A DNA stretch of 64,000 nt from the human T2T-CHM13v2.0 reference genome, Homo sapiens (GCF_009914755.1 NC_060926.1), one strand, 5' to 3'; counted from the first letter of the stretch, positions 434 to 533 are shown. Translations and numbers: made by a program. Notes: generated by a model from the letters alone, not told the origin.

Positions 434-533
434 GTTTGTATATTATACTTTCTTGCCATGAGTGGGTGAAGAAACTTTCTGAAGGCTAAACTAGAGGATC
501 CAAGAAATGTAGGCACATTATGACACCACAGGG
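434..533 (+). pseudogene. Fossil exon (ANKRD26-like), example copy; one per 1.87-kb unit
   Basis: gag|...ATA CTT TCT TGC c ATG AGT GGG TGA AGA AAC TTT CTG AAG GCT AAA CTA GAG GAT CCA AGA AAT GTA GGC...G|gtgtga. Resembles recalled ANKRD26 [23 protein letters not shown], with a +1 frameshift and a TGA stop. Confidence 0.75.

What the first reader, a model, noticed from the sequence alone, without database searches (positions are those of the whole stretch)
434..533. A dead ANKRD26-like exon rides in every 1.87-kb unit
Seen: ~585 nt upstream of the 29-nt exon of each 1.87-kb unit there is a 100-nt block, usually bounded by (g)ag and gt (e.g. 434-533, 35659-35758, 41243-41342, 63731-63830; ~18 copies). 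It translates as I(P/L)SC-(+1 nt)[18 protein letters not shown]...HM. From memory, ANKRD26 has [33 protein letters not shown] directly before its single ESPERYLHLK/PTIEMKDSVPNK... copy of this repeat, a segment that would span 99 nt. Inference: the amplified unit was a three-exon module whose first exon was killed (frameshift, TCA>TGA, weak GAG acceptor) before amplification. Any residual inclusion would add a premature stop, giving ~18 latent poison exons.
Basis: partly seen in the sequence, partly recalled or inferred. Interest (0 to 1): 0.75.

Follow-up and report, generated by a model that had tools for sequence, protein, structure and literature searches.

The report
Dead ANKRD26-type exon in ANKRD36 repeats
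Each 1.87-kb repeat unit inside the human ANKRD36 gene carries the decayed remains of a 99-base coding exon that is still used in the paralogue ANKRD26; it is a neat but ordinary molecular fossil, and nothing shows that it still acts.

Summary

The unit aligns collinearly (E 1e-109) with one 2.2-kb stretch of chr10. There the block is a 99-nt open exon bounded by AG and GT, followed by the 29-nt and 73-nt exon homologues. Its peptide is residues 456-487 of human ANKRD26 isoform 1, followed directly by the 29/73-nt exon peptides.

- **Lesions:** 18 of 18 window copies have TGA where ANKRD26 has TCA, and 18 of 18 have one extra base.
- **Effect of inclusion:** 18 of 18 would give a premature stop.
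- **Genome-wide:** 46 of 46 ANKRD36-like matches carry in-frame stops.
- **Selection:** within the young array the block evolves like intron, 88.3% against 88.7%.

The array copies form a 100/100 clade on a long stem. So death before amplification is the simplest reading, though later spread by concerted evolution is not excluded.

The poison-exon idea is untested. No listed RefSeq exon overlaps a block, and the splice sites are weak and partly lost. Verdict: a vestigial exon, a new member of a known kind, of modest interest.

The parts
434..533 (+). Dead exon copy, 100 nt. GAG acceptor, GT donor, extra base, TGA at the TCA codon.
2313..2411 (+). Dead exon copy, 99 nt, with TAG acceptor and GT donor. 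It lies in a unit truncated at 2629 by an Alu-like repeat.
23656..23756 (+). Old, strongly diverged relic of the same exon, upstream of exon 24178-24206. It has TGA at the aligned codon and no extra C, and both splice sites are lost. The 5' boundary is uncertain by 1-2 nt.
   Evidence: it does not group with the array copies
35659..35758 (+). Dead exon copy, 100 nt. The acceptor AG is lost at the aligned position (GAA); GT donor.
37531..37630 (+). Dead exon copy, 100 nt, with GAG acceptor and GT donor.
39377..39475 (+). Dead exon copy, 99 nt, with AAG acceptor and GT donor.
41243..41342 (+). Dead exon copy, 100 nt, with GAG acceptor and GT donor.
43113..43213 (+). Dead exon copy, 101 nt. GAG acceptor; donor lost (AT).
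45007..45106 (+). Dead exon copy, 100 nt. GAG acceptor; donor shifted by 2 nt.
46897..46996 (+). Dead exon copy, 100 nt, with GAG acceptor and GT donor.
48777..48876 (+). Dead exon copy, 100 nt. Acceptor lost (GTG); GT donor.
50645..50744 (+). Dead exon copy, 100 nt, with GAG acceptor and GT donor.
52513..52612 (+). Dead exon copy, 100 nt, with GAG acceptor and GT donor.
54384..54483 (+). Dead exon copy, 100 nt. GAG acceptor; donor shifted by 2 nt.
56253..56352 (+). Dead exon copy, 100 nt, with GAG acceptor and GT donor. It lies 30 nt upstream of the RefSeq alternative exon 56383-56445.
58121..58220 (+). Dead exon copy, 100 nt, with GAG acceptor and GT donor.
59989..60088 (+). Dead exon copy, 100 nt. 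GAG acceptor; donor shifted by 2 nt.
61859..61958 (+). Dead exon copy, 100 nt, with GAG acceptor and GT donor.
63731..63830 (+). Dead exon copy, 100 nt. GAG acceptor; donor shifted by 2 nt.
1118..1312 (+). Example of the live part of a unit: the 29-nt exon (1118-1146), a 93-nt intron and the 73-nt exon (1240-1312). These are homologous to ANKRD26 exons at chr10 27090653-27090681 and 27090486-27090558.
   Evidence: hub annotation

Best explanation
The block is a vestigial (dead) exon. An ANKRD26-like ancestor had a three-exon module of 99 + 29 + 73 nt, which is 201 nt or 67 codons.

The 99-nt exon starts and ends in the same codon phase. Skipping it therefore leaves the reading frame intact, because 29 + 73 = 102 nt.

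In the lineage leading to the ANKRD36 array this exon dropped out of the mRNA. It acquired a nonsense change (TCA to TGA) and a one-base insertion. A ~2.2-kb genomic segment holding the dead exon and the two live exons was then amplified in tandem, in several rounds. The latest round was a three-unit, 5.6-kb higher-order repeat.

The dead exon has since drifted like the surrounding intron. It is a passenger, not a working part.

- **Shown:** the homology, the collinearity, the lesions and their distribution, and the intron-like rate of change.
- **Inferred:** the order of events (death before amplification), and that loss of splicing rather than the stop came first.
For: **Homology and collinearity**
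- Window 335-1336 aligns to chr10 27091489-27090461 at 70% identity.
- Window 1374-2002 aligns to 27092650-27092010, which is the upstream intron. This is the only such place in the 200 kb fetched.

**The chr10 block is a live exon**
- It is 99 nt, AG/GT-bounded and open. It joins in frame to the 29-nt and 73-nt exons, with introns of 603 and 94 nt against 584 and 93 in the window.
- Its peptide is residues 456-487 of human ANKRD26 isoform 1 (1710 aa).
- Among the 120 hits listed, related sequence appears in proteins named ANKRD26 from other primates, horses, pig, mustelids and armadillo.

**Lesions**
- 18 of 18 window copies have TGA at the TCA codon, and 18 of 18 have an extra base.
- 18 of 18 would give a premature stop if spliced in, 12 of them at the second codon.
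- The unit upstream of the window has both lesions too.
- Of 62 genome matches to the exon peptide, only ANKRD26 is strong and open. All 46 at ANKRD36-like places carry in-frame stops, 45 of them a TGA.

**Polarity**
- All 6 non-ANKRD36 homologues examined have TCA. These are ANKRD26, two at chr10 37.18 Mb, and one each at chr21 11.76, chr18 14.98 and chr13 23.77 Mb.
- The three of them that align closely there (ANKRD26, chr10 37.181 Mb, chr13 23.77 Mb) have no extra C.

**Neutrality**
- Among the 11 young units, mean pairwise identity is 88.3% for the block and 88.7% for the 603-nt intron.

**Timing**
- The 19 array copies form a 100/100 clade on a stem of 0.24 changes per site.
- JC distance from ANKRD26 to a unit is 0.42. 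The deepest unit-to-unit distance is about 0.27.
- Units three apart are about 92-96% identical.

**Not in the mRNA**
- The hub's RefSeq table lists no exon of 40 transcripts that overlaps a block.
Against: - The block is more like ANKRD26 (70.9%) than the flanking intron is (62.5%). Among the five oldest units it is somewhat better kept than intron (83.7% against 78.8%). This could hint at residual constraint. It is also what constraint on the ANKRD26 side, or a spell of constraint before death, would give, and 100 nt is a small sample.
- AG and GT both survive in 11 of 18 copies. I judge this close to what drift alone would leave.
- Concerted evolution in tandem arrays can spread a lesion after amplification, so a shared lesion does not prove the order of events.
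- The old relic at 23.66 kb has TGA at the same codon but does not group with the array (AU p = 0.023). That TGA is either convergent or the short tree misplaces a long branch.
- No RNA data were examined.
Confidence: 0.88

Rival explanations
1. Latent or active poison exons. The blocks are still recognised at a low or regulated level. Inclusion brings in a premature stop, and nonsense-mediated decay then tunes ANKRD36 output.
For: - Inclusion would give a stop in 18 of 18 copies, and AG plus GT survive in 11 of 18.
- The same intron does produce an annotated alternative exon (56383-56445) with an in-frame TGA, 30 nt downstream of one block.
Against: - None of the exons listed for 40 RefSeq transcripts overlaps a block (hub table).
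- The donors match U1 at only 4-5 of 9 positions, against 6-8 of 9 for the live exons. The acceptor usually has G at -3.
- There is no conservation above intron among the young units, 88.3% against 88.7%. Regulated poison exons are typically conserved (recalled general knowledge).
- The paper searches listed nothing on this. I saw listings only.
Confidence: 0.05
2. The exon was still alive when the module was first amplified. The stop and the frameshift arose in one unit and spread through the array, and into the paralogous genes, by unequal crossing-over or gene conversion.
For: - The array shows clear rounds of homogenisation or re-amplification, with units three apart 92-96% identical.
- The deepest unit split (JC 0.27) is not much younger than the split from ANKRD26 (0.42).
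- Predicted ANKRD26-like proteins of a sloth and a beaked whale hold two full 67-residue modules, so live three-exon duplications do occur.
Against: - Even the most diverged array units (434, 2313, 39377; 75-83% to the rest) carry both lesions.
- The stem leading to the array clade is long (0.24), leaving ample time for death before the first retained split.
- No open copy was found among the 46 ANKRD36-like matches.
Confidence: 0.15
3. The block was never an exon in the ANKRD36 lineage. It was intron sequence that became an exon only on the ANKRD26 side.
For: - Only ANKRD26 has a demonstrably live copy.
- The chr10 37.18 Mb relatives lack an AG at the aligned acceptor.
- The translation of one of them matched no protein.
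Against: - All non-ANKRD36 homologues share TCA.
- In the listed hits the exon peptide appears in proteins named ANKRD26 across placental orders: primates, horses, pig, carnivores and armadillo. It is therefore old.
- The block keeps the open-frame similarity along its whole length once the one extra base is skipped.
Confidence: 0.05

Closest known systems
Human ANKRD26 coding exon at T2T chr10 27091285-27091383 (minus strand); residues 455-487 of isoform 1
   Same: - Same position in a collinear three-exon module.
- Same length apart from one base.
- 66-78% nucleotide identity per copy, with a 24-nt core that is identical or nearly so.
- Same intron spacing to the 29-nt and 73-nt exons.
   Different: The ANKRD26 copy is open, has a TAG acceptor and is in the protein. 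The ANKRD36 copies have TGA and an extra base, have further stops, and are in no listed transcript.
Vestigial or pseudo-exons: relics of duplicated exons left in introns
   Same: Homologous to a real exon, in the expected place, disabled, unannotated and drifting like intron.
   Different: Here one relic was multiplied with its unit. There are at least 25 copies in this gene and 81 pattern matches at ANKRD36-like places genome-wide. That such relics are a known class is general knowledge I recalled; I read no paper on it.
Poison exons (stop-bearing cassette exons coupled to nonsense-mediated decay, e.g. SCN1A 20N)
   Same: Inclusion would introduce a premature stop.
   Different: There is no evidence of inclusion, the splice sites are weak or lost, and there is no extra conservation. 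SCN1A 20N is known to me only from the title and abstract listing of PMC11981616.
Other relics of the same exon at chr10 37.18-37.24 Mb, chr18 14.9 Mb, chr21 11.76 Mb and chr13 23.77 Mb
   Same: Recognisable homologues of the block. The chr10 37.181 Mb copy is sister to the ANKRD36 array copies (95/90).
   Different: They keep TCA and lack the extra C, but have lesions of their own. The chr10 37.181 Mb copy has no AG at the aligned acceptor and a 1-nt deletion followed by a stop. The gene names for these places (ANKRD30A/B and similar) would be recalled from map position and were not checked.

Membership tests
Homologue of the ANKRD26 99-nt coding exon | Significant sequence similarity to the exon. 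| tested here: met
   The unit alignment has E 1e-109. Block identity to the exon is 65-78%. The 24-nt core pattern gives 84 genome hits against 0 for the control, and ANKRD26 is one of the hits.
Homologue of the ANKRD26 99-nt coding exon | Same place relative to homologous neighbouring exons, with matching boundaries. | tested here: met
   The order is block, then a 584/603-nt intron, the 29-nt exon, a 93/94-nt intron and the 73-nt exon. The AG and GT columns coincide.
Homologue of the ANKRD26 99-nt coding exon | The reference block is really a coding exon. | tested here: met
   The peptide is found exactly at residues 456-487 of human ANKRD26 isoforms 1 and 2, followed by the 29/73-nt exon peptides.
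Vestigial (dead) exon | Disabling lesions in the ancestral frame. | tested here: met
   TGA in 18 of 18, an extra base in 18 of 18, and a premature stop on inclusion in 18 of 18.
Vestigial (dead) exon | Absent from mature transcripts. | not testable with these tools
   This rests only on the hub's RefSeq table, which lists no exon of 40 transcripts overlapping a block. No RNA data were available.
Vestigial (dead) exon | Evolves at the neutral (intron) rate. | tested here: met
   In the young units, 88.3% for the block against 88.7% for the intron. In the five oldest units, 83.7% against 78.8%, which is less clear.
Poison exon | Measurable inclusion in transcripts that rises when nonsense-mediated decay is blocked. 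| not testable with these tools
   No RNA data were available, and no block appears in the RefSeq table given.
Poison exon | Premature stop on inclusion. | tested here: met
   18 of 18 copies.
Poison exon | Competent splice sites. | tested here: inconclusive
   AG in 16 of 18, GT in 13 of 18 and both in 11 of 18. The U1 match is 4-5 of 9, against 5 of 9 for the live ANKRD26 exon and 6-8 of 9 for the live ANKRD36 exons. These are only crude counts; no MaxEnt-type score was available.
Poison exon | Conservation above the surrounding intron. | tested here: not met
   Among the young units, 88.3% against 88.7%.

The most novel reading that the evidence does not exclude
The relic exons of the ANKRD36 family number at least 25 in this gene, with about 80 pattern matches genome-wide, and most still have an AG and a GT. 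They could form a large reservoir of latent poison or decoy exons. Low-level or tissue-specific inclusion, or activation by single-base or copy-number variants in this highly polymorphic array, would send ANKRD36 transcripts to nonsense-mediated decay and so set expression level.
Probability: 0.06. Interest if true: 0.55.

Novelty: new member of a known kind. Interest (0 to 1): 0.3.

Why it matters
- **History of the repeat.** The finding fixes the origin of the ANKRD36 internal repeat. The unit is a circularly permuted 2.2-kb piece of an ANKRD26-like gene that originally held three exons. One of them was symmetric in phase, so it could be dropped without breaking the frame.
- **Annotation.** Gene predictors and protein-to-genome aligners may be tempted by about 80 ANKRD26-like pseudo-exons.
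- **Variant interpretation.** Changes in these blocks are unlikely to matter unless they create strong splice sites.
- **Broader significance.** It does not open a new question in splicing or gene regulation unless inclusion is shown.

Tried and rejected
- the 18-nt pattern around the TGA is useless for a census. It gave 41,165 hits against 19,299 for the reversed control, because a near-identical 18-mer sits in a dispersed repeat. I think this is L1, by recall; it was not tested. One search found no such repeat copy in the window to compare with.
- Counts outside the window therefore rest on hit tables and one 600-nt piece.
- the 32-residue query was too short. It was replaced by a 48-residue read-through of the same locus.
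- the translation of the chr10 37.189 Mb relative matched no protein at E <= 0.001. This is weak evidence that that copy is not coding.
- **Using the old relic at 23.66 kb to order the two lesions (TGA first, insertion later):** rejected as unsafe. The 233-column tree places it outside the array, and the AU test disfavours a joint clade (p = 0.023). A clade with ANKRD26 is not rejected (p = 0.087). The relic is a long branch.
- **Homology of the 31-nt exon at 3086 to the 29-nt exon:** not found.
- **Literature:** searches listed no paper on the internal repeat of ANKRD36 or its relation to ANKRD26 exons. Passages read in PMC12067082, PMC3906575 and PMC5740500 only call ANKRD36 a homologue of ANKRD26, name ANKRD36B as highly duplicated in humans, and list ANKRD36C among genes with clusters of mutually exclusive exons.

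Full report
**1. What is in the window**

blastn of window 400-560 against the whole window, repeated with two other copies as queries, finds 18 full copies of a ~155-nt stretch, all on the + strand. It also finds one 65-nt partial match at 23667-23731.

After alignment to the chr10 exon described below, the exon-equivalent blocks are at 434-533, 2313-2411, 35659-35758, 37531-37630, 39377-39475, 41243-41342, 43113-43213, 45007-45106, 46897-46996, 48777-48876, 50645-50744, 52513-52612, 54384-54483, 56253-56352, 58121-58220, 59989-60088, 61859-61958 and 63731-63830.

Of the 18 annotated 29-nt exons in the window:
- 16 have a full block about 585 nt upstream.
- The exon at 24178 has only an old relic (about 23656-23756).
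- The exon at 20884 has none, because a repeat occupies the place.

The copy at 2313 sits in a unit that ends at 2629 against an Alu-like repeat, and the 31-nt exon at 3086 is not detectably related to the 29-nt exon. One further unit lies just upstream of the window. A 24-nt pattern places six more copies downstream in the same gene, so ANKRD36 holds at least 25.

**2. The ANKRD26 counterpart**

The window's own assembly could be searched. I fetched 200 kb of contig C10. Units of the window match one place only:
- Window 335-1336 aligns to C10 27091489-27090461, minus strand, at 70% identity and E 1e-109.
- The part of the unit after the 73-nt exon (window 1374-2002) aligns to 27092650-27092010, which lies upstream of the block on chr10.

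The tandem unit is therefore a circular permutation of one ~2.2-kb ANKRD26-like segment. Its breakpoints lie about 1.27 kb upstream of the block and about 25 nt downstream of the 73-nt exon.

On chr10 the block is 99 nt (27091285-27091383), preceded by ttag and followed by gtatgg. It is open, and it joins in frame to a 29-nt exon (27090653-27090681) and a 73-nt exon (27090486-27090558), with introns of 603 and 94 nt.

A 48-residue read-through of this locus matched 399 proteins. Human ANKRD26 isoforms 1 and 2 match at 100% identity over exactly the exon part. Among the 120 hits listed there are also proteins named ANKRD26 from apes, monkeys, horses, pig, mustelids and armadillo, at 82-97% identity.

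In isoform 1 (1710 aa) the peptide is at residues 456-487, immediately followed by the peptides of the 29-nt and 73-nt exons.

**3. The lesions**

| Feature | Count |
|---|---|
| TGA where ANKRD26 has TCA | 18 of 18 |
| One extra base (simplest reading: a second C before ATG) | 18 of 18 |
| Length 100 / 99 / 101 nt | 15 / 2 / 1 |
| AG at the aligned acceptor | 16 of 18 (GAG 14, TAG 1, AAG 1) |
| GT at the aligned donor | 13 of 18 (4 of the other 5 have GT two bases on) |
| Both AG and GT | 11 of 18 |
| Premature stop if spliced in | 18 of 18 (12 at the second codon) |

The stop count assumes entry in the phase set by the upstream 73-nt exon.

Further points:
- The unit upstream of the window has the same two lesions.
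- In a six-frame search of the genome with the exon peptide, 62 places were scored. ANKRD26 is the only strong, open match (E 6e-15). All 46 matches at ANKRD36-like places (chr2 in four clusters, chr13, 14, 15, 16, 21, 22 and contig 24) have in-frame stops, 45 of them a TGA.
- The other 15 matches lie at chr10 37.18-37.24 Mb, chr18 14.9 Mb, chr21 11.76 Mb and chr13 23.77 Mb. Five of these places were fetched; all have TCA. The three sequences that align closely there (ANKRD26, chr10 37.181 Mb, chr13 23.77 Mb) lack the extra C.
- TCA without the insertion is therefore the ancestral state, and the ANKRD36 state is derived.

**4. Is the block under selection?**

Identity to ANKRD26 is 70.9% for the block on average. 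It is 62.5% for the long intron, 59.2% for the live 29-nt exon and 64.0% for the live 73-nt exon. The excess for the block is what purifying selection on the ANKRD26 side would give.

Inside the array the block behaves like intron:
- 88.3% against 88.7% among the 11 young units.
- 84.8% against 83.9% among 16 units.
- 83.7% against 78.8% among the five oldest, a possible but weak excess on 100 nt.

Splice-site survival (16 of 18 and 13 of 18) is about what drift would leave at this divergence; that is my inference, not a formal test.

Donor complementarity to U1 is 4-5 of 9 in the blocks, 5 of 9 in the live ANKRD26 exon and 6-8 of 9 in the live ANKRD36 exons. The pyrimidine count at -20 to -4 is 11-12 of 17, against 12 in ANKRD26. 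So the live ANKRD26 exon itself has a weak donor. The main visible acceptor change is T to G at -3, in 14 of 18 copies.

**5. Order of events**

The unit identity matrix shows layers:
- Old units (434, 35659, 37531, 39377, 41243) are 75-85% identical to the rest.
- Young units are 84-93% identical to each other.
- A three-unit (5.6-kb) higher-order repeat is visible, with units three apart 92-96% identical.

JC distances over the homologous ~990 nt are 0.42 from ANKRD26 to a unit, about 0.27 for the deepest unit split (39377 against the rest) and 0.23 for unit 434.

In a tree of the block plus 65-nt flanks (233 columns), the 19 array copies form a 100/100 clade on a stem of 0.24 changes per site. 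Their sister is the chr10 37.181 Mb relic (95/90), with chr13 23.77 Mb and ANKRD26 branching next.

Both lesions map to that long stem. This is the simplest support for 'killed before amplification'. Later spread by unequal crossing-over or conversion is not excluded, and I give it about 0.15.

The old relic near 23.66 kb has TGA at the aligned codon and no extra C, which would suggest the stop came first. But the tree puts this long branch outside the array, and the AU test disfavours a joint clade (p = 0.023). A clade with ANKRD26 is not rejected (p = 0.087). I therefore do not rest the order of the two lesions on it.

**6. Mechanism**

The 99-nt exon begins and ends in phase 1. The full module is 201 nt (67 codons) and the two-exon remainder is 102 nt (34 codons). 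Skipping the exon costs 33 residues and nothing else.

With a donor that is weak even in ANKRD26, constitutive skipping in a redundant paralogue is an easy first step, after which stop and frameshift accumulate freely. The reverse order is equally possible: a lesion first, then selection for skipping. Both orders are inference.

The exon also decayed independently elsewhere:
- The chr10 37.181 Mb copy has no AG at the aligned acceptor and its own 1-nt deletion followed by a stop.
- The translation of the chr10 37.189 Mb copy matched no protein (weak evidence).

**7. The poison-exon proposal**

Nothing here could test inclusion.

Against it:
- No exon listed by the hub for the 40 RefSeq transcripts overlaps a block.
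- The splice sites are weak or lost.
- There is no extra conservation.

For it:
- Stops on inclusion are universal.
- The same intron does yield an annotated 63-nt alternative exon (56383-56445). It starts 30 nt after block 56253-56352, uses ctag|GT...GAAGT|gtacgt, and has an in-frame TGA.

I put an actual regulatory role at about 0.05.

**8. Literature**

Searches for ANKRD36 with ANKRD26, tandem (repeat), exon/repeat/duplication, POTE/ancestral, poison or pseudo-exon terms and nonsense-mediated decay listed nothing on the internal repeat or this relic (listings and abstract starts only).

Passages read:
- PMC12067082 calls ANKRD36 a homologue of ANKRD26.
- PMC3906575 names ANKRD36B as highly duplicated in humans.
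- PMC5740500 lists ANKRD36C among genes with three clusters of mutually exclusive exons.

The library lacks most subscription papers, so earlier work on the ANKRD26/POTE family may exist unseen.

**9. Limits**

The rest of ANKRD36 and the chr10 37.2 Mb cluster were therefore seen only as hit tables and short pieces.
- Gene names for places other than ANKRD36 (hub) and ANKRD26 are not established by any search.
- The splice-site measures are crude counts.
- The dating rests on a clock assumption.

**10. Verdict**

The homology and three-exon-module interpretation is supported, the timing is probably right, and the poison role is unsupported. This is a vestigial exon multiplied as a passenger of an intragenic tandem amplification: a new example of a known kind, of modest interest (0.3).

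Noticed in passing
window 56383-56445: The RefSeq alternative exon (63 nt) starts 30 nt downstream of the dead block 56253-56352. It has AG/GT boundaries. In the ANKRD36 frame it contains an in-frame TGA, so it is the annotated stop-bearing cassette of this intron, not the dead block.
   Followed up: partly
window 48777-63830: The 3' part of the array is a three-unit (about 5.6-kb) higher-order repeat. Units three apart are 92-96% identical, while neighbours are 87-90%.
   Followed up: partly
window: the live 29-nt and 73-nt exons from 36339 to 62736, and 1118-1312: The live exons are no better conserved than the introns, both among units and against ANKRD26. A rough Nei-Gojobori estimate among units gives dN/dS of 1.3-1.75. 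The estimate rests on short, non-independent pairs. All 18 modules stay open.
   Followed up: partly
window 23000-24430 and 20595-21002: The two isolated 29/73-nt exon pairs (20884/20998 and 24178/24296) lie in old units. These units align to ANKRD26 (66-71%) at least as well as to the array units. Their peptides are very different from those of the array.
   Followed up: partly
window 23656-23756: The old relic has TGA at the same codon as the array copies but no extra C. The tree does not join it to the array (AU p = 0.023). This is either a convergent stop or a misplaced long branch.
   Followed up: yes
G000 C10:37181141-37240621: A cluster of at least 11 weak matches to the exon peptide, of three kinds, recurs with spacings of about 11.1 to 11.8 kb. 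This suggests that another gene of the family has its own repeat containing relics of this exon. The 37.181 Mb copy is sister to the ANKRD36 array copies.
   Followed up: partly
proteins P0019, P0117, P0002, P0003: Mustelid ANKRD26 proteins hold one full 67-residue module followed by two extra 34-residue (29+73-nt type) modules. Predicted ANKRD26-like proteins of a sloth and a beaked whale hold two full modules. Amplification of this module seems recurrent in mammals.
   Followed up: no
genome-wide; in the window e.g. 48801-48817: The 18-mer around the TGA differs by one base from an 18-mer carried by thousands of dispersed repeat copies: 41,165 hits at up to 3 mismatches, against 19,299 for the reversed control. 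The similarity does not extend beyond about 20 nt as far as I could see.
   Followed up: partly
window 39377-41242: This unit is the most diverged of the array (75-79% to all others). Its module peptide is aberrant and lysine-rich. The hub lists a masked stretch at 40095-40208 that overlaps the start of its 73-nt exon.
   Followed up: no
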